A stretch of 6,324 nt of DNA. It comes from a virus. How positions within the stretch are numbered: position 1 is the first letter of the stretch; each line of letters starts with the position of its first letter. Under the pieces are notes generated by a model. That model saw only the letters and a program-made list of their open reading frames with translations. It was not told the DNA's origin and searched no databases. This document shows positions 948 to 5,237 of this stretch, piece after piece. The stretch lies in IMG/VR virus record IMGVR_UViG_3300045988_001352, positions 1-6,324 of that record; one strand, 5' to 3'. A program made the position numbers and the translations under genes.

Positions 948-1430
948 ATGATTGGAAAATTTAATTCTTTGAATAGTTCGGAACAAGGTTCTGTACTTGT
1001 TCCCGATGTTAACCCGGATGCTTTTGCAGTTGCTCCCGAGTTTGATTCTACTGAGGAACTTCGTGTTGAGATTGACGATTCTGACGAAACTCGTCCTGTT
1101 CGTTACACCTCTGATGTCCGTTTGCTTCTTCATACCAAAGACTTGGCTTCTCGTGCTGGTCTTGCCATTGCTTCCAAGTTCGGACAAAGCAGGCAATCTG
1201 CGTCCCAGATTCAGCAGATTATGGATAAGATGTCTGATAATGACCTTTTGGCAACGGTTCGTTCTCGTCATGTTCAGTCTCCTTCTGAGATTATTGCTTG
1301 GTCTAAAGAGTTGTCGGCTTATGCTGAAAATCTTGAATCCCAGGCTCAAGCCTTGATTGATGCTGAAAATGCTAAACAAGAAGCAGAAAAAGCGGCTGCT
1401 GCTCCCGCTGATACTGCTTCCTCTGAATAA
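948..1430 (+). CDS. Hypothetical acidic protein of 160 aa. It is a possible internal scaffolding protein, judged by position and composition only.
   Basis: The ORF lies between the capsid and pilot genes. ATG at 948 is preferred over the TTG at 942 used in the track. It shares the T-rich third-position codon style of the flanking genes. It is D/E-rich with an Ala/Glu-rich C-terminus. Its stop overlaps the VP2 start (TAATG at 1428..1432), which suggests translational coupling. I recognise no family motif. Confidence 0.7.
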   Translation: MIGKFNSLNSSEQGSVLVPDVNPDAFAVAPEFDSTEELRVEIDDSDETRPVRYTSDVRLLLHTKDLASRAGLAIASKFGQSRQSASQIQQIMDKMSDNDLLATVRSRHVQSPSEIIAWSKELSAYAENLESQAQALIDAENAKQEAEKAAAAPADTASSE

Positions 1431-2491
1431 TGGGTCTTTTAGGTTCAATCGCTGGTGGTCTTCTCGGTATTGGTTCTTCCTCTATGCAGAATGCGCAGAA
1501 TAGACAAAATGTCCGAGAGACCAATCAGATGAACTATAAGATAAATCAGATGAACAATCAGTTCAACGAGCGTATGGCTATGCAGCAGCGCGATTTCCAG
1601 GAAAATATGTGGAATAAGGAAAACGCATATAATACTGCTTCCGCGCAACGCCAACGTCTCGAAGAAGCTGGTTTGAATCCTTACATTATGATGAATGGTG
1701 GTTCTGCTGGTACTGCCCAATCTGTTGGCTCTGGTGCCTCTGCTTCTTCTGCCGGTTCTGCTGTCATGCAGCCTTTTCAGGCGGATTATTCAGGCATTCA
1801 GCAAGCTATTGGCTCTGTATTTCAGTCGCAGGTTCAGCAGGCACAGGTTTCTCATTTACAAGGCCAGAAAAATCTTGCAGACGCTCGGGCCATGCAGGCT
1901 CTTTCTTATGTTGATTGGTCTAAAATGACTAAGGAAACTCGAGAGTATTTGAAAGCTACCGGATTAGCTCGTGCTCAGCTTGGTTATTCTAAGGAAATGC
2001 AGGAACTTTATAATATGGCTTTTGCCGGACGTCTTTTGCAGGCTCAAGGTACTTCCCAATTGCTTGATGCTGAAGCTAAGACGGTTCTTAACAAGTATCT
2101 TGACCAGCAGCAGCAGGCTGATTTGAATGTTAAGGCCTCTGAGTATTATAGTCAGATGTCTCATGGCCATTTGAACTATAATCAAGCGAAAAAAGTTCTT
2201 GCTGAAGAAGTCCTTACTTATGCCCGTGCTAAAGGTCAGAAAATCAGTAATAAGGTTGCTGAAGCTACTGCTGATTCTCTAATTCGTGCTTCTAATGCTT
2301 CTAATCATTCGAATGCTGAATTTGAGCTTGAAGCTGCTAAATTTAATCGTGAGCGCGCTCGTTCTCGTAGTATTGAGGATTGGTATCGTTCTCGTAATGA
2401 AGGTAAGAAATATAAGTATTATGATGCCGATAAGGCTGTACATTATGGTACGTCTATTGGTAATACTATAGGAAACTTTCTGCCCTGGTAG
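1430..2491 (+). CDS. VP2: DNA pilot / minor capsid protein (Microviridae VP2, H-like), 353 aa
   Basis: The N-terminus is Gly-rich and hydrophobic (MGLLGSIAGGLLGIGSS). It is followed by a Q/N-rich segment and the motif NKENAYNTASAQRQRLEEAGLNPY, typical of gokusho/alpavirus VP2 pilot proteins. The central region is long and predicted helical, rich in Q, A and K. The gene sits directly downstream of the capsid module. Confidence 0.85.
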   Translation: MGLLGSIAGGLLGIGSSSMQNAQNRQNVRETNQMNYKINQMNNQFNERMAMQQRDFQENMWNKENAYNTASAQRQRLEEAGLNPYIMMNGGSAGTAQSVGSGASASSAGSAVMQPFQADYSGIQQAIGSVFQSQVQQAQVSHLQGQKNLADARAMQALSYVDWSKMTKETREYLKATGLARAQLGYSKEMQELYNMAFAGRLLQAQGTSQLLDAEAKTVLNKYLDQQQQADLNVKASEYYSQMSHGHLNYNQAKKVLAEEVLTYARAKGQKISNKVAEATADSLIRASNASNHSNAEFELEAAKFNRERARSRSIEDWYRSRNEGKKYKYYDADKAVHYGTSIGNTIGNFLPW

Positions 2492-2513
2492 TACTTTTGT
2501 TTGTTGTGTGTTT

Positions 2514-2546
2514 ACCCGGCTCGTAGTGATACGCGTCGGGTTTTTT
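2514..2546 (+). terminator. Rho-independent terminator downstream of VP2
   Basis: ACCCGGCTCGTA (2514..2525) pairs with TACGCGTCGGGT (2530..2541). That gives 12 positions with one mismatch and one G-T pair, closed by a GTGA tetraloop. T2541 closes the stem and begins the T run 2541..2546. The structure starts 23 nt after the VP2 stop codon. Confidence 0.7.
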
Positions 2547-2720
2547 GCTGCTTGGAGTAACTTCCGGCAACCGCGCGTAGCGTGGTTATACACCTCCTTG
2601 AATTCCGGGACGTTAGGACTGGAATCAGAGCCGCCAGGCTATAGTACTGCCTTCCTTAAAGCTTGACGTTTGCAACGCGTAGGCAGTTTTCCAGTGAGCT
2701 TCTCTCTCCCGTCGCTGCTA
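2547..2720. other. GC-rich, hairpin-dense non-coding segment. It is a candidate complementary-strand (minus) origin or attachment/structured element.
   Basis: There is no credible ORF. My hand count gives about 53% G+C over 2511..2720, against about 40% in sampled coding sequence. Three stems are visible. AACCGCGC (2569..2576) pairs with GCGTGGTT (2580..2587) around a GTA loop. TTCCGG (2562..2567) pairs with CCGGGA (2605..2610) and encloses that hairpin. AGCC (2629..2632) pairs with GGCT (2637..2640). The segment lies between the terminator and the promoter, so it is probably largely untranscribed. Confidence 0.45.
2646..2690 (+). terminator. Second stem-loop followed by TTTT. It may be a backup terminator or part of the structured element.
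   Basis: ACTGCCT (2646..2652) pairs perfectly with AGGCAGT (2681..2687). T2687 closes the stem and begins the T run 2687..2690. The 28-nt interior contains a nested CGTT-TGC-AACG mini-hairpin (2667..2677). Confidence 0.35.
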
Positions 2721-2776
2721 TACCCCTAAAAATATAAAAATGTAAATTGGCGAAGCTACATGTGTTTGCCCGAAGG

Positions 2777-2801
2777 GAAAGCTATTTACCTCATAGCTTT
2801 C
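2777..2801. repeat. Perfect 9-bp inverted repeat with a 7-nt spacer
   Basis: GAAAGCTAT (2777..2785) and ATAGCTTTC (2793..2801) are exact reverse complements. The spacer is TTACCTC. Related AAGCTA/TAGCTT copies flank it at 2753..2758 and 2854..2859. Confidence 0.6.
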
Positions 2802-2892
2802 AGTTTCTCCTTGTCTTATATACGCAAACTCACAGACCAGCCTGCCACCCATATAGCTTATTATTATTTTATGTTAATAATTCATATGAGCA

Positions 2893-2925
2893 TTTGGTAT
2901 TTCTGAATTTTTATTTATACATTTG
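2893..2925 (+). promoter_or_regulatory. Candidate Bacteroides-type (sigma-ABfr) promoter: -33 TTTG and -7 TAnnTTTG
   Basis: TTTG lies at 2893..2896 and TACATTTG at 2918..2925, an exact match to TAnnTTTG. They are separated by 21 nt. The site is in the AT-rich part of the intergenic region, 17 nt upstream of the first ATG of the downstream gene string (2943). Confidence 0.5.
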
Positions 2926-2942
2926 TTCTGTCTTTAAAAACA

Positions 2943-3140
2943 ATGTCTAATTTAAAATTCAAGTTTATGGAAAAGTGTTATTTATGCTCTGTGCAATCTA
3001 AGTTGAATCCCAATCAGAACGAAACTATTCTTGTTCCTGTTGACGAAGTTTCTGCATTTGTTTCTTCGCATCTTCGTCCTGATTGCGTACTTATTATTTC
3101 TCATTGTTCAACCTTTAAAGCAATTCCTGATGAAAAGTGA
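2943..3140 (+). CDS. Hypothetical small protein of 65 aa with Cys/His pairs
   Basis: It begins with ATG and is the first ORF after the predicted promoter. Its codon style (ctt, gtt, cct, tct) matches the other phage genes. It contains CxxC (CYLC) near the N-terminus and HLRPDCVLIISHC near the C-terminus. I recognise no family. Confidence 0.5.
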   Translation: MSNLKFKFMEKCYLCSVQSKLNPNQNETILVPVDEVSAFVSSHLRPDCVLIISHCSTFKAIPDEK

Positions 3141-3219
3141 AACTAAATCAAAGATTTGGGCTGCTGTTATTGCGGCTGCTATTAGCCTCCTTACGTCTAT
3201 TTCTAAAATATTTATGTAA
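3130..3219 (+). CDS. Putative 29-aa single-pass membrane peptide (MKSETKSKIWAAVIAAAISLLTSISKIFM), a holin-like or lysis-accessory candidate
   Basis: This is the only ATG in the 3031..3219 frame apart from the codon just before the stop. The upstream part of that ORF is a TTG-started, F/L-rich +1-frame artefact. The peptide has a charged N-terminus followed by a hydrophobic stretch of about 17 residues. It overlaps the end of the preceding ORF by 11 nt and ends 15 nt before the peptidase gene. It is very short, so it remains speculative. Confidence 0.35.
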   Translation: MKSETKSKIWAAVIAAAISLLTSISKIFM

Positions 3220-3234
3220 GTTAAGTCGTAAGTC

Positions 3235-3543
3235 ATGAATCCGGCATTAATGAAATTTATTGAATGGCTCCTTCGTTGGAATATTCATTTCTCTGTTACT
3301 TCTGCTCTTCGTACTAAGAAAGAGAATGAAGCGTGTGGAGGTTCTGTTAATTCCCAGCATTTAACCGGTGATGCTGTTGATTTGAAACCTCTTGATATTT
3401 CAGTGGATGAATTATTTAAGAGAATCAAAGATTCAGGTTTTGAATTCGACCAACTTATAAAGTATCGAACTTTTGTTCACATTTCTTTTGCACGTTGTCG
3501 CAAGCCTCGTCGAATGGAACTTAATTTTACTGATAGAAAATGA
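3235..3543 (+). CDS. Peptidase M15 family (LAS-type zinc D,D- or L,D-peptidase) of 102 aa, a putative endolysin
   Basis: The translation contains the M15 signature ..TSALRTKKENEACGGSVNSQHLTGDAVDL.. This matches the S-x-H-x2-G-x-A-x-D pattern (H42-x6-D49), with a distal FVHIS (H82) as the third zinc ligand and a conserved Arg26. The stop overlaps the VP4 start (ATGA at 3540..3543). Confidence 0.82.
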   Translation: MNPALMKFIEWLLRWNIHFSVTSALRTKKENEACGGSVNSQHLTGDAVDLKPLDISVDELFKRIKDSGFEFDQLIKYRTFVHISFARCRKPRRMELNFTDRK

Positions 3544-5237
3544 TTACTAAAGAATTGCAGAATAAGTTAGTGACTCGTTGTCAGAATCCTCGTACTGTTG
3601 CCAACAAGTATACACATGAACCCGTTGTTGTTTCTTGTGGTTCTTGCCCTTCGTGTATTCTTCGTCGTTCCGGTATTCAGACTAACCTGCTTACTTCTTA
3701 TTCTGCTCAGTTCCGTTATGTATATTTTGTTACTCTTACTTATGCTCCTCAGTTTCTCCCTACGTTGGAAGTTTCGGTTGTTGAGACTTGTACGGACGAT
3801 ATTGCGGATGTTTCCGTTGTTCCCGATATTAATGGCTTGGACGCTTGTGACCCTAATACTTATTTGTTTGGTTTTCGTAGCGTTCCTCGTTCCTCTTCTG
3901 TTAGATTGAAAAGTTCTACTGTAGAACGTACCTTTAAAGACCCTGAGGTTAGATTTACTTATCCTATGAAATCTAAGGATTTATTGTCTATTCTTTGTAA
4001 GATTAACCATAATGTTCCTAATAGAATTCCTTATATTTGTAATCGTGACCTCGATTTATTTTTGAAACGTTTAAGAAGTTACTACCCAGATGCAAAATTA
4101 CGTTACTACGCTGTATCAGAATACGGCCCTACCAGTTTCCGCCCGCATTGGCATTTGTTATTGTTTTCCAATTCCGAACGATTCTCGGAAACTGTTCTTG
4201 AAAATGTATCTAAAGCTTGGTCTTACGGTCGTTGTGATGCGTCATTGTCGAGAGGATTCGCAGCACCGTATGTTGCGTCGTATCTTAATAGCTTTGTCGC
4301 TTTACCCGACTTTTATACTCAGATGCCAAAAGTGGTGCGCCCTAAATCCTTCCATTCCATTGGATTTACAGAATCAAATCTCTTTCCTCGAAAGGTACGA
4401 ATTGCCGAAATTGACAATGTTGCCGATAAGTGTCTTAATGGCGTCCGCGTTGAGCGCAATGGATATTTTCGCACAATTAAACCTTCTTGGCCGTATCTCC
4501 TTCGACTATTCCCCCGATTTTCGGACCCTATTCGTAAATCTCCATCGAGTATTTACCAATTACTTTCTGCTGCGTTCACAGCGCCCGAACGAGTCATTCG
4601 TAGCGGATGTGCTGATATAGGATGTGATCCGTTTGGTGAACGTTCCAAACAAAGTATTTTGTCTTTTTGTAAGTGTTATTTAAATTATGTAGATAATTAT
4701 GGAAAGTCAAATGAATGTAGGAATTTCCTTTCTCCTAAGGCGAATCTACCGCATAGTGATATTCTCATTCTTACTGAATGTCGTTTGTACGATGGTGTTG
4801 ATTTGGAAATTACTCATCGTCTCTCCCGCGTATACCGCTTTTTCCTCGGAATTTCGAAATTTATTCGAATATATTCTCCAGATGGATGCTCAGAACTCTT
4901 TTGGTCCAGCGGCACTCCTGGAGGAGACCTCTTCTGTCGAGAAAGATTCTTACGAATAATTTCTGAAAAGATATTTGGTTTTTGGAAACGTTATGATTAT
5001 AACCGTCTTGTAGACTTTTATCAGACTTTGGAGGATTCCAATGATAAAGATTTGGTCGATTTTGAGATTCGTAACTATTCCTTCCGTTATAATAGAACTG
5101 TTCGTGACAAGGAAAAACCTTACCATGAATTGCCTCTTGTTCGTCGTTTGGTTACCGCTTCATTGATGAAATGTCGGGATAAGGTCAAACATAAGAAGGC
5201 TAATGATTTGTTTGGTATTTACTCTTATCAGGACTAA
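3540..5237 (+). CDS. VP4: Rolling-circle replication initiator (Microviridae VP4 / A-like HUH endonuclease), 565 aa
   Basis: The N-terminus has a C..NP...x..CGSCPSC Cys cluster. Motif 1 is FVTLTY (nt 3726..3743). Motif 2 is the HUH motif RPHWHLLLF (HWH at nt 4146..4154). Motif 3 has two tyrosines, APYVASYLN (Y at 4269..4271 and 4281..4283), to be compared with YVAKY in phiX174 protein A. Confidence 0.93.
   Translation: MITKELQNKLVTRCQNPRTVANKYTHEPVVVSCGSCPSCILRRSGIQTNLLTSYSAQFRYVYFVTLTYAPQFLPTLEVSVVETCTDDIADVSVVPDINGLDACDPNTYLFGFRSVPRSSSVRLKSSTVERTFKDPEVRFTYPMKSKDLLSILCKINHNVPNRIPYICNRDLDLFLKRLRSYYPDAKLRYYAVSEYGPTSFRPHWHLLLFSNSERFSETVLENVSKAWSYGRCDASLSRGFAAPYVASYLNSFVALPDFYTQMPKVVRPKSFHSIGFTESNLFPRKVRIAEIDNVADKCLNGVRVERNGYFRTIKPSWPYLLRLFPRFSDPIRKSPSSIYQLLSAAFTAPERVIRSGCADIGCDPFGERSKQSILSFCKCYLNYVDNYGKSNECRNFLSPKANLPHSDILILTECRLYDGVDLEITHRLSRVYRFFLGISKFIRIYSPDGCSELFWSSGTPGGDLFCRERFLRIISEKIFGFWKRYDYNRLVDFYQTLEDSNDKDLVDFEIRNYSFRYNRTVRDKEKPYHELPLVRRLVTASLMKCRDKVKHKKANDLFGIYSYQD

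What the first reader, a model, noticed from the sequence alone, without database searches (positions are those of the whole stretch)
2492..2942. Large non-coding block with a GC-rich hairpin cluster between terminator and promoter: candidate minus-strand origin
Microvirus genomes are extremely compact, with genes here overlapping by ATGA and TAATG. Yet 451 nt, about 7% of the genome, is non-coding. Its 5' half (about 2514..2720) is about 53% G+C by hand count, against about 40% in sampled coding sequence. It folds into several strong stems: 2514..2541, 2562..2610 enclosing 2569..2587, 2629..2640 and 2646..2687. It lies after the terminator and before the promoter, so its function is probably at the DNA level. 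ssDNA replicons need a folded signal on the packaged strand to prime complementary-strand synthesis. Known examples are the phiX174 PriA/n' hairpin, the G4 and M13 minus origins, and plasmid sso elements. The apex of the 2569..2587 hairpin carries TAGCGT (2578..2583), identical to the CS-6 hexamer of ssoA-type single-strand origins. A single hexamer match is weak evidence. Other possibilities are a host-derived attP segment or a structured RNA.
Basis: partly seen in the sequence, partly recalled or inferred. Interest (0 to 1): 0.65.

Follow-up and report, generated by a model that had tools for sequence, protein, structure and literature searches.

The report
Conserved folded-DNA origin-like module in microviruses
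The long gene-free stretch of this small single-stranded DNA phage holds a conserved, strand-specific cluster of DNA-type hairpins, shared as a swappable cassette by very different gut microviruses, which most likely tells the host where to start copying the incoming single strand.

Summary
Positions 2492..2942 are a real non-coding block of a circular 6183-nt microvirus genome, and this block is more conserved than the flanking genes.

Its core (2551..2728, + strand) is a five-helix element found once each in 74 microvirus genomes. In the aligned set, 99.9% of cells are paired and 11 of 30 pairs show compensatory changes. The TAGCGT/CS-6 match is not conserved either.

There is no Rfam family, tRNA, conserved ORF, dif-like site, host copy or plasmid copy.

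The hairpin caps are DNA "mini-hairpin" motifs (GCGNAGC, CCG(N)NAGG, CCCGNAGGG). These are the motifs known from the primase sites of G4, St-1 and alpha3 and from RSF1010 ssiA. No conserved Bacteroidetes-type promoter lies upstream. The element sits between a conserved terminator-like hairpin and a conserved TAnnTTTG promoter box.

The element is shared by phages whose Rep proteins are almost unrelated. In a second clade it lies antisense to the genes, but there the codon third-position skew is mirrored, so the element is always on the T-rich strand.

Best reading (about 0.55): a host-dependent signal on the packaged single strand for complementary-strand synthesis. This is a new family of a known kind, and the function is inferred, not shown.

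The parts
2492..2942 (.). Whole intergenic block between the pilot-protein gene (stop at 2491) and the first small early ORF (ATG at 2943).
   Evidence: ORF list and sequence. Across 63 related genomes, per-position majority conservation is 0.85-0.99 for 2511..2880, higher than the flanking coding sequence at 0.5-0.8.
2514..2546 (+). Hairpin 0: CCCGGCT-CGTA-GTGA-TACG-CGTCGGG followed by TTTTTT. It looks like the intrinsic terminator of the late operon.
   Evidence: DNA fold -8.4 kcal/mol, z = -2.6. Conserved in 62 genomes, with compensatory changes in 4 of 6 outer pairs and a conserved T-run.
2551..2728 (+). Core conserved element: a five-helix multi-branch fold closed by P1.
   Evidence: Covariance model R1 scores 203 bits here. 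One copy each occurs in 74 microvirus loci and none in non-microvirus contigs. 99.9% of cells are paired, 11 of 30 pairs have compensatory changes, and slid controls give about 33%.
2565..2568 (+). P1 5' strand (CGGC), pairing with 2714..2717 (GCTG). This is the closing helix.
   Evidence: All 69 sequences pair here, but only one-sided G-C/G-T changes occur, so support is weaker.
2569..2587 (+). P2 hairpin AACCGCGC-GTA-GCGTGGTT with an invariant G-T pair. The cap GCGTAGC (2575..2581) is a DNA mini-hairpin motif.
   Evidence: Compensatory changes at 3 pairs. The cap is GCGNAGC in 63 of 69 copies with N = T/A/C/G, and one copy has GCGAAAGC.
2588..2596 (+). Invariant unpaired joiner ATACACC(TC).
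   Evidence: Invariant columns; tabulated.
2597..2628 (+). P3 hairpin (CTTGAATTCCGG ... CTGGAATCAG) with a bulged A, an invariant G-T pair and a C-GTTA-G cap (2611..2616).
   Evidence: 4 pairs with compensatory changes, for example 25 of 69 T-A to C-G at one pair and 33 of 69 at the apical pair. The apex is GTTA, GTA or GATA in 35 copies.
2629..2640 (+). P4 mini-hairpin AGCC-GCCA-GGCT.
   Evidence: All 4 pairs show compensatory changes. The cap is CCG(N)NAGG in 64 of 69 copies and CACGNAGTG in 3.
2641..2665 (+). Conserved unpaired segment ATAGTACTGCC...GCTTG.
   Evidence: Near-invariant A, AGTA and T positions, and an invariant CTT.
2666..2680 (+). P5 short helix (ACGT/GCGT) around a loop that holds the invariant CAACGCGTA.
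   Evidence: C-G/T-G alternation at two pairs, and an invariant CAACGCGTA.
2681..2713 (+). Variable, pyrimidine-rich segment.
   Evidence: Alignment; tabulation.
2714..2728 (+). P1 3' strand and the tail GCTGCTATACCCC, followed by an A-run.
   Evidence: Conserved as GCYGCTAWACMCC. A similar TATA(T)ACC tail plus A-run ends the unrelated modules of Dulem virus 245 and Dulem virus 262.
2745..2880 (+). Block 2, a second conserved non-coding module. It contains the mini-hairpin GGCGAAGCT (2749..2757), a long-range helix 2761..2769 with 2824..2832, the mini-hairpin CCCGAAGGG (2769..2777), the hairpin 2777..2801, and the invariant CACAGACCAGCC.
   Evidence: Conservation of 0.92-0.99. RNAalifold gives a three-way junction with a 23 of 54 compensatory change in the 2777..2801 stem, and the CCCGNAGGG loop has N = A/T/G. 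The small GGC/GCC stem covaries as GAC/GTC and GGT/ACC. mar63 carries TGACTTTGC/GCAAAGTCA, a compensatory version of the long-range helix. Block 2 is absent from the six carriers whose genes lie on the opposite strand.
2918..2925 (+). TACATTTG, a Bacteroidetes-type -7 promoter box (TAnnTTTG) 18 nt before the ATG at 2943.
   Evidence: A TAnnTTTG box lies downstream of the element in 63 of 66 related genomes, in most of them about 180-183 nt from the element's end. The sigma-70 scan finds no promoter in 2300..3100.

Best explanation
The core element (2551..2728), probably working with the neighbouring hairpins, is a cis-acting signal that functions as folded single-stranded DNA on the packaged strand.

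Proposed mechanism: after entry, most of the genome is coated by host SSB. This region instead folds into a fixed multi-helix shape held by exceptionally stable GNA/GNNA mini-hairpin caps. The fold stays SSB-free and displays invariant unpaired segments (ATACACC, ATAGTACTGCC, CAACGCGTA, CTATACCCC). A host priming enzyme (primase, a PriA primosome or RNA polymerase) recognises it and lays down the RNA primer for complementary-strand synthesis.

Because it depends on the host and not on the phage Rep protein, it behaves as an exchangeable, orientation-dependent cassette, like the sso elements of rolling-circle plasmids.

Shown here: conservation, strand-specific covariation, DNA-type loop motifs, absence of coding and promoter signals, and cassette distribution.

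Inferred: that the fold forms in ssDNA, that it is a priming site, and which host enzyme reads it.
For: 1. Structure is under selection on one strand. 99.9% of cells are paired and 11 of 30 pairs are compensatory. Invariant G-T pairs in P2 and P3 would be A-C mismatches on the other strand.

2. The hairpin caps are the DNA mini-hairpin motifs: GCGNAGC in 63 of 69 copies, CCG(N)NAGG in 64 of 69, plus CCCGNAGGG and GGCGAAGCC in block 2. In the P4 tetraloops the third base is usually a pyrimidine (GTTA 28, GTCA 10, GCCA 6, against GNRA 5), which fits the DNA rule and not the RNA GNRA rule. The review PMC13037366 reports the following. Only GNA or GNNA loops closed by C-G give these DNA hairpins (Tm 70-76 C). 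The RNA version is far weaker (39 C). They occur at the primase sites of G4 (GCGAAAGC), St-1 and alpha3 (GCGTTAGC), and in RSF1010 ssiA (CCGAAGG). The G4 record shows that motif in the annotated complementary-strand origin.

3. All three strict motifs on the + strand of the whole genome fall inside 2574..2777.

4. The element lies in a transcriptional gap. A conserved terminator-like hairpin lies upstream. A conserved TAnnTTTG box lies downstream in 63 of 66 genomes. Only 12 of 74 copies have such a box upstream of the element.

5. It is not tied to Rep. Near-identical copies (186-190 bits) occur in L104 and L114, and diverged copies in mar45, mar40 and mar49. The mar45 Rep matches the window's Rep only at 29% identity over 66 aa.

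6. Orientation follows the strand, not the genes. In 57 genomes with genes on the element strand, coding-strand AT3 skew is -0.48 to -0.62. In the 6 with genes on the other strand it is +0.43 to +0.60. Every stretch of DNA similarity between the two groups is an intergenic module, and every one is inverted relative to the genes.

7. The pattern generalises. In non-coding gaps of 34 non-carrier genomes with T-rich coding strands, mini-hairpins are 79 on the coding strand against 13 on the other. In 52 genomes with A-rich coding strands they are 5 against 19. Coding regions show no bias. Fisher's test on distinct sequences gives p = 6e-5.

8. NNT codon excess in ssDNA phages is attributed to C-to-T deamination of the packaged strand (PMC3278643).
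Against: - No experiment or direct strand information is available; the function is inferred.
- The core's predicted fold energy is not better than shuffled sequence.
- There is no sequence homology to any characterised minus origin; R1 finds nothing in G4.
- For the six antisense carriers, the model requires that the strand complementary to the genes is the packaged one. This contradicts the textbook positive-sense description of Microviridae and rests on composition alone.
- Cultured phiMH2K has an A-rich coding strand, yet its one GAAA-capped intergenic hairpin is on the coding strand. The T-rich rule is therefore not proven to be general.
- Effectively only two or three independent lineages carry the element.
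- Many relatives lack it and carry other modules.
Confidence: 0.55

Rival explanations
1. A structured non-coding RNA, either a gene or a UTR element, transcribed from the element strand. It would act in trans on the host or phage, or in cis on mRNA stability or translation.
For: Covariation and conserved G-U-compatible pairs fit RNA as well as DNA. Occurrence in both orientations relative to the genes is what a self-contained RNA gene would allow. Rfam holds only described families, so a miss does not exclude a new one.
Against: - No conserved Bacteroidetes -7 box lies upstream: 12 of 74 copies have one, against 63 of 66 for the downstream gene promoter.
- In the main clade the element starts about 5 nt after a conserved terminator-like hairpin and T-run.
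- The loops are GNA triloops and GNYA tetraloops closed by C-G. These are stable in DNA and weak in RNA, rather than GNRA or UNCG.
- RNA fold z = +0.12.
- In the antisense carriers it would need an unrecognised antisense promoter, and it overlaps the 3' end of Rep.
- It does not explain why orientation tracks third-position skew.
Confidence: 0.15
2. The plus-strand (rolling-circle) origin or another Rep- or packaging-linked site. Rep would nick or bind within the element, for example near the invariant CTTG or the TATACC tail, and that would define the packaged strand.
For: - Such a site would also be strand-specific and would make orientation coincide with the packaged (T-rich) strand.
- An invariant CTTG(A/C/G) recalls the CTTG-ATA nick context of phiX174 and pC194 (my own knowledge, not tested).
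- A TTTAACA-N5-TTTAACA direct repeat abuts the element in all six antisense carriers.
Against: - The same element, at 80-82% nucleotide identity, serves phages whose Rep proteins share only 29% identity over 66 aa. Rep-specific origins normally co-vary with their Rep.
- The base after CTTG is not conserved.
- Block 2 and the TTTAACA repeats are each restricted to one Rep clade, so they are better candidates for Rep-linked sites.
Confidence: 0.1
3. A recombination or attachment site (XerCD/dif-like attP, possibly folded ssDNA as in CTXphi), or DNA captured from the host.
For: Related Bacteroidales proviruses are flanked by dif-like sites and encode no integrase (PMC3091885).
Against: - The best match to the bacterial dif consensus anywhere in the genome is 21 of 28, the same as shuffled sequence, and it is not in this block.
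- No helix is long enough to form a 28-bp dif duplex.
- Two pattern scans of 185,579 species genomes found no copy, apart from one chance match.
- There was no plasmid hit.
Confidence: 0.04
4. An unannotated small protein gene. ORFs 2508..2666 (+) and 2279..2593 (-) overlap the region, and GenBank annotates a hypothetical protein over the 3' end of the element in Dulem virus 257.
For: These ORFs exist in this genome, and one relative carries an annotation.
Against: Element lengths vary by 1-2 nt steps. At most 9 of 74 copies are stop-free in any one frame. Substitutions are compensatory across helices rather than codon-periodic.
Confidence: 0.01

Closest known systems
Primase-dependent complementary-strand origins of phages G4, St-1, alpha3 and phiK (Bullavirinae)
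   Same: - Both lie in the largest intergenic region of a microvirus, on the gene-sense strand in this window.
- Both are a cluster of G+C-rich hairpins over roughly 140-180 nt.
- The hairpin caps follow the GCGNAGC/GCGNNAGC mini-hairpin type: G4 has GCGAAAGC, St-1 and alpha3 have GCGTTAGC. Here the caps are GCGTAGC, CCGCCAGG and CCCGAAGGG, and one relative even has GCGAAAGC.
- A TACTGC string lies just 3' of a capped hairpin in both. This is a lead only.
   Different: - There is no detectable sequence or model homology.
- The architecture differs: five helices closed into a junction here, against three independent hairpins in G4.
- The presumed host is Bacteroidetes-like, whose primase specificity is unknown.
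- The CTG is not invariant here.
- Priming was not tested.
Single-strand origins (ssoA, ssoT, ssoU, ssoW) of rolling-circle plasmids
   Same: Both are non-coding, folded, strand- and orientation-dependent, host-specific and independent of Rep. Both are exchanged as cassettes between replicons with different Rep proteins, and several unrelated types occupy the same position.
   Different: - The defining ssoA motifs are absent: the CS-6 TAGCGT is not conserved and no RS-B was identified.
- No plasmid copy was found.
- The sso types are known from Gram-positive hosts.
RSF1010 ssiA/ssiB and other ssi signals; N4 virion-RNAP hairpin promoters; ssDNA promoters of conjugative plasmids
   Same: All are short ssDNA hairpins capped by CCGAAGG, GCGGAGC or similar mini-hairpins and read by a primase or polymerase. 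The exact string CCGAAGG caps P4 in 8 copies.
   Different: Those signals are single hairpins of 40 nt or less, recognised by plasmid- or phage-encoded enzymes. Here the fold is a 178-nt multi-helix element, and the window encodes no polymerase or primase.
phiX174 primosome assembly site (PriA n' site) and the M13/Ff minus origin
   Same: They have the same biological role (the start of complementary-strand synthesis on the packaged strand) and the same kind of location, in an intergenic region.
   Different: No sequence relation was found. No sigma-70-like folded promoter is present. PriA or RNAP dependence cannot be judged from sequence.

Membership tests
G4-type (primase-dependent) complementary-strand origin | Lies in an intergenic region on the packaged strand. 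| tested here: inconclusive
   The intergenic location is shown. The packaged strand is only inferred from T-rich third positions.
G4-type (primase-dependent) complementary-strand origin | A cluster of stable hairpins carrying GCGNAGC/GCGNNAGC-type mini-hairpin caps. | tested here: met
   P2, P4 and block-2 caps. Motif definition from PMC13037366. G4 sequence.
G4-type (primase-dependent) complementary-strand origin | Sequence or structure homology to the G4, St-1 or alpha3 origin. | tested here: not met
   Model R1 with filters off finds nothing above noise in G4.
G4-type (primase-dependent) complementary-strand origin | Primer start at a conserved 5'-CTG-3' just 3' of hairpin I. | tested here: inconclusive
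   TACTGCC follows P4, but the CTG varies (TTG, CTC) in some copies. The trinucleotide used by Bacteroidetes primase is unknown.
G4-type (primase-dependent) complementary-strand origin | SSB-resistant, DnaG-dependent primer synthesis in vitro. | not testable with these tools
   Biochemical assay needed.
ssoA-type single-strand origin | A conserved CS-6 hexamer TAGCGT in a terminal loop. | tested here: not met
   The hexamer is present at 2578..2583, but it spans the loop and the stem. Its first base is T, A, C or G across copies, and G becomes A in distant copies.
ssoA-type single-strand origin | An RS-B recombination/RNAP-binding site. | not tested
   No reference sequence was at hand. There was no plasmid similarity at all.
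M13/Ff-type minus origin | Folded hairpins that mimic a sigma-70 -35/-10 promoter. | tested here: not met
   No sigma-70-like site in 2300..3100 on either strand. This scan reads linear sequence only.
Known structured RNA families (Rfam 15) | A match to a curated covariance model. | tested here: not met
   No hit in the block at E <= 10, even with lax filters on 481 nt. No tRNA or tmRNA.
XerCD/dif-like attachment site of Bacteroidales microviral proviruses | A 28-bp dif-like sequence. | tested here: not met
   The best score is 21 of 28, equal to shuffles, and lies outside the block.
Intrinsic transcription terminator (hairpin 0 only) | A G+C-rich stem-loop followed directly by a T-run on the sense strand after the last gene of an operon. 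| tested here: met
   2514..2541 plus TTTTTT, conserved with covariation. The simple scan missed it because of its internal mismatch.

The most novel reading that the evidence does not exclude
The intergenic cassette, not the genes, defines which strand a microvirus packages. A whole clade of gut microviruses would then package the strand antisense to its genes, making them 'negative-sense' Microviridae. This clade comprises mar45, mar40, mar49, L062, L104, L114 and about 50 IMG/VR relatives.

In that clade the shared intergenic modules are inverted relative to the genes. The codon third-position skew is the mirror image (A-rich instead of T-rich). DNA-type mini-hairpins in non-coding DNA sit on the non-coding strand.
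Probability: 0.4. Interest if true: 0.85.

Novelty: new member of a known kind. Interest (0 to 1): 0.7.

Why it matters
How microviruses outside the phiX174/G4 group start complementary-strand synthesis is unknown. Published work only notes unassigned hairpins (PMC9865509). This element gives a precisely bounded candidate, supported by covariation, for the abundant gut microviruses that carry Bacteroidetes-type promoters. Its boundaries are clear enough to clone and delete.

Its DNA-type loop grammar offers a simple sequence test for telling ssDNA signals from RNA structures in ssDNA replicons.

The strand rule it reveals is that modules and mini-hairpins always lie on the T-rich strand. This makes the polarity of packaged DNA in uncultured microviruses directly testable. 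If it holds, the assumption that all Microviridae are positive-sense would fall.

Tried and rejected
- **Rfam.** Searched the whole window and the block alone with lax filters; only noise.
- **tRNA/tmRNA.** None.
- **Sigma-70 promoter scan.** None in the block. The terminator scan flagged only 2777..2801.
- **Fold energy.** Not significant for the core, so it is not used as support.
- **CS-6/ssoA link.** Rejected because the hexamer is not conserved.
Not conserved.
- **Coding potential.** Rejected.
- **dif-like site.** Rejected.
- **Host origin.** Two genome-collection scans gave zero hits and one chance hit.
- **Metagenome scan.** Added only one more phage copy.
- **Plasmid search.** Nothing.
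- **Independent RNA promoter.** A Bacteroidetes -7 box upstream of the element occurs in only 12 of 74 copies.
- **Homology to other modules.** None to G4 or to the modules of Dulem virus 245 and mar63.
- **Whole-genome mini-hairpin counts.** Uninformative: 117 against 109. Only the non-coding subset is asymmetric.
- **phiMH2K polarity.** I could not obtain the phiMH2K paper to check how its polarity was determined.
- **Similarity to the phiX174 origin.** Strings such as TTAATAA and A-AGACCA in block 2 recall it, but I judged this too low in complexity to count.
Full report
**What the window is**

The 6324 bases are a circular microvirus genome of 6183 nt with 141 nt repeated at the ends. All genes are on the + strand:
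- major capsid protein, 5266 through the junction to 933;
- scaffold protein, 948..1430;
- pilot protein, 1430..2491;
- two small ORFs, 2943..3140 and 3137..3238;
- an M15 peptidase, 3235..3543;
- the replication initiator (Rep), 3540..5237.

Positions 2492..2942 hold no gene. G+C reaches 0.52 in 2501..2700 against about 0.40 elsewhere. So the basic observation is correct.

**Is the block more than chance?**

Fold energy alone says little. The whole block folded as DNA has z = -2.7. The conserved core has z = -0.84 as DNA and +0.12 as RNA.

Conservation says much more. The block is found at about 84% identity in Dulem viruses 236 and 257 and bajarodmic viruses 1134 and 410. Part of it is found at 70-72% identity in much more distant marmot microviruses. 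Across 63 related genomes, positions 2511..2880 are 0.85-0.99 conserved, more than the flanking coding sequence.

A pattern scan of IMG/VR, a second scan with a different part of the element, and a covariance model (R1) recovered exactly one copy in each of 74 microvirus-sized loci. None was found in the larger contigs that matched the pattern by chance.

**Anatomy of the core (2551..2728)**

- P1: 2565..2568 with 2714..2717. This helix closes a junction.
- P2: 2569..2587.
- P3: 2597..2628.
- P4: 2629..2640.
- P5: a short helix, 2666..2680.
- Invariant unpaired segments: ATACACC, ATAGTACTGCC, CAACGCGTA and the tail CTATACCCC.

On 69 aligned copies, 99.9% of cells form a pair and 11 of 30 pairs have compensatory changes. 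When partners are slid by one to three columns, pairing drops to about 33%. Two G-T pairs are invariant, so the fold exists on this strand only.

The TAGCGT hexamer spans the loop and the 3' strand of P2. It varies among copies, so the CS-6/ssoA link is dropped.

**What flanks the core**

Upstream, hairpin 2514..2541 plus a T-run is conserved with covariation and looks like the terminator of the late operon.

Downstream lies a second highly conserved module, block 2 (2745..2880). It forms a three-way junction made of:
- a small GGCGAAGC(C/T) hairpin whose stem covaries;
- a long-range helix, 2761..2769 with 2824..2832, which has a compensatory version in mar63;
- a CCCGNAGGG mini-hairpin;
- the 2777..2801 hairpin.

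A TAnnTTTG box at 2918..2925, 18 nt before the next ATG, has a counterpart in 63 of 66 relatives. This identifies a Bacteroidetes-type promoter.

**What it is not**

- It encodes no conserved protein. Lengths differ by single nucleotides, and at most 9 of 74 copies are open in any one frame.
- It matches no Rfam family, tRNA or tmRNA.
- It has no dif-like site.
- It has no copy in 185,579 species genomes beyond one chance match.
- It has no copy in plasmids.

**DNA or RNA?**

Three lines of evidence point to DNA.

First, the loops.
- P2 is capped by GCGNAGC in 63 of 69 copies with N free, and once by GCGAAAGC.
- P4 is capped by CCG(N)NAGG in 64 of 69 copies. Its tetraloops are mostly GTTA, GTCA or GCCA rather than GNRA.
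- Block 2 adds CCCGNAGGG and GGCGAAGCC.
- These are the "mini-hairpin DNA" motifs. According to the review PMC13037366, only GNA or GNNA loops closed by C-G form them, and they melt at 70-76 C as DNA but near 39 C as RNA.
- The same review places them at the primase sites of G4 (GCGAAAGC) and of St-1 and alpha3 (GCGTTAGC), in RSF1010 ssiA (CCGAAGG) and in N4 hairpin promoters.
- The G4 record shows the motif inside the annotated complementary-strand origin.
- In the window, all three strict instances on the + strand of the whole genome lie in 2574..2777.

Second, transcription signals. The element begins a few bases after the terminator-like hairpin and ends about 190 nt before the promoter box. 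Only 12 of 74 copies have any TAnnTTTG box within 130 nt upstream.

Third, distribution. Copies 80-82% identical to the window's occur in L104 and L114, and more diverged copies in mar45, mar40 and mar49. The window proteins detect nothing in L104 or L114 by tblastn. The mar45 Rep matches the window Rep only at 29% over 66 residues, although both carry the same Rep Pfam domain. A signal read by host enzymes can be shared in this way; a Rep-specific origin would not be expected to.

Variants also exist that keep the 5' half but carry a different 3' half (L038, L062, L077 and Dulem virus 262). Dulem virus 245 has an unrelated module at the same place with four mini-hairpins and a similar TATATACC tail followed by an A-run. 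This is the behaviour of interchangeable cassettes, as with plasmid sso elements.

**The orientation puzzle**

In six carriers (mar45, mar40, mar49, L062, L104, L114) the element lies on the strand opposite to all genes. At first sight this refutes any function on the packaged strand.

Those genomes, however, have mirror-image composition. Third codon positions on the coding strand have an A-over-T skew of +0.43 to +0.60. The 57 genomes with genes on the element strand have -0.48 to -0.62. The element is therefore always on the T-rich strand.

Both clades use the same TAnnTTTG promoter type. Opposite codon endings are thus unlikely to reflect different tRNA pools. T-rich third positions in ssDNA phages are attributed to C-to-T deamination of the packaged strand (PMC3278643).

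All nucleotide similarity between the two groups is intergenic and inverted relative to the genes. This includes a separate 98-nt module shared by mar49 and mar63.

I then tested a prediction on genomes that do not carry the element.
- In 34 relatives of Dulem virus 245 (T-rich coding strands), mini-hairpins in non-coding gaps are 79 on the coding strand against 13 on the other.
- In 52 relatives of mar45 (A-rich coding strand in 51 of them), they are 5 against 19.
- Coding regions show no bias.
- Fisher's test on distinct hairpin sequences gives an odds ratio of 14 and p = 6e-5.

The simplest reading is that the T-rich strand is the one that exists single-stranded, and that the mar45-like clade packages the strand antisense to its genes.

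Caveats remain. This rests on composition and motifs only. The lineages are few. The cultured phage phiMH2K has an A-rich coding strand but carries its one GAAA-capped intergenic hairpin on that strand.

**Mechanism proposed**

On the incoming single strand, the element folds and its mini-hairpin caps keep it folded and free of SSB. Its invariant unpaired segments are presented to a host priming enzyme, which starts the complementary strand.

Shown here: conservation, strand-specific covariation, DNA-type caps, lack of coding and promoter signals, independence from Rep, and the strand rule. Inferred: folding in ssDNA in vivo, priming, and the identity of the enzyme.

I give this 0.55. Other readings:
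- a new non-coding RNA, 0.15;
- a Rep- or packaging-linked site, 0.10 (block 2 and the TTTAACA repeats of the second clade are better candidates for that role);
- an attachment site, 0.04;
- a protein gene, 0.01;
- the remainder is unassigned.

**Comparison with what is known**

The element works most like the primase-dependent origins of G4, St-1 and alpha3, and like plasmid sso cassettes. It is not a member of either family: it has no homology to G4 and lacks a conserved CS-6.

No paper in the searchable library describes it. The nearest reports unassigned intergenic hairpins in other microvirus clades.

I rate it a new member of a known kind, with a more novel possibility attached: packaging polarity set by the cassette, and so negative-sense microviruses.

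Noticed in passing
L118 (mar45), L119 (mar49), L062, L104, L114, L127-L192: A whole clade of microviruses has strongly A-rich third codon positions on the coding strand (AT3 +0.36 to +0.76 in 51 of 52 genomes). This is the mirror image of the window's clade (-0.48 to -0.62). Their non-coding mini-hairpins lie mainly on the non-coding strand. They may package the strand antisense to their genes.
   Followed up: partly
window 2745..2880: This is a second non-coding module (block 2), even more conserved than the core (0.92-0.99). It forms a three-way junction with two GNA mini-hairpins and an invariant CACAGACCAGCC. It is present in mar62 and mar63 but absent from the antisense carriers, so it may be the Rep-linked part of the origin region. 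Strings such as TTAATAA and A-AGACCA recall the phiX174 origin, but this was not tested.
   Followed up: partly
L119 (mar49) 4584..4681 and L125 (mar63) 4269..4364: A separate 98-nt GC-rich intergenic module (88% identity, containing GCCGCTTGCGGC) is shared by two otherwise unrelated microviruses. It too is inverted relative to the genes.
   Followed up: no
L006, L007, L009, L062, L104, L114, just 5' of the element: A direct repeat TTTAACA-N5-(T/A)TTAACA lies immediately upstream of the element in all six antisense carriers. Further upstream, on the gene strand, is the TAnnTTTG promoter box of the small ORFs. The function of the repeat is unknown; it could be Rep binding.
   Followed up: no
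L038, L062, L077 (3' half replaced); L008 (Dulem virus 262); L003, L030, L036: The element is modular. Some genomes keep the 5' half (leader, P2, P3) but have a different 3' half. Dulem virus 262 shares 43 nt at 100% identity with the window and then diverges. An extra GTCGC-TT-GCGAC module is inserted after the element in several genomes.
   Followed up: partly
L124 (Dulem virus 245) 3581..3971: A relative without the element has, at the same position, an unrelated module with four C-GNA-G mini-hairpins (CGGCGAAGCCG, CTCGAAGAG, GGCGAAGCC, CCCGTAGGG), a pyrimidine-rich stretch and a TATATACC tail followed by an A-run.
   Followed up: partly
L002 1671..1874; L006 1271..1345; L007 1032..1070: GenBank annotations overlap the element. 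A 'hypothetical protein' in Dulem virus 257 covers its 3' end and is probably spurious. The annotated Rep ORFs of mar45 and mar40 run 73 nt and 33 nt into the element on the other strand.
   Followed up: no
L111 2922..3037: One genome has a second, weak match to the element model (28 bits) next to its full copy. It could be a partial duplication.
   Followed up: no
window 3235..3543: The phage encodes a 102-aa Peptidase_M15_3 protein (Pfam E = 1e-13), presumably a cell-wall hydrolase used for lysis. Its stop overlaps the Rep start (ATGA).
   Followed up: no
L120 (phiMH2K) 2786..3031: The cultured Bdellovibrio phage phiMH2K has an A- and C-rich coding strand (AT3 +0.40, GC3 -0.56), unlike Chp2, SpV4 and the window. 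Its GC-rich intergenic hairpins, including CGTCGAAAGACG, are nevertheless on the coding strand. This conflicts with a simple rule that the T-rich strand is the packaged one.
   Followed up: partly
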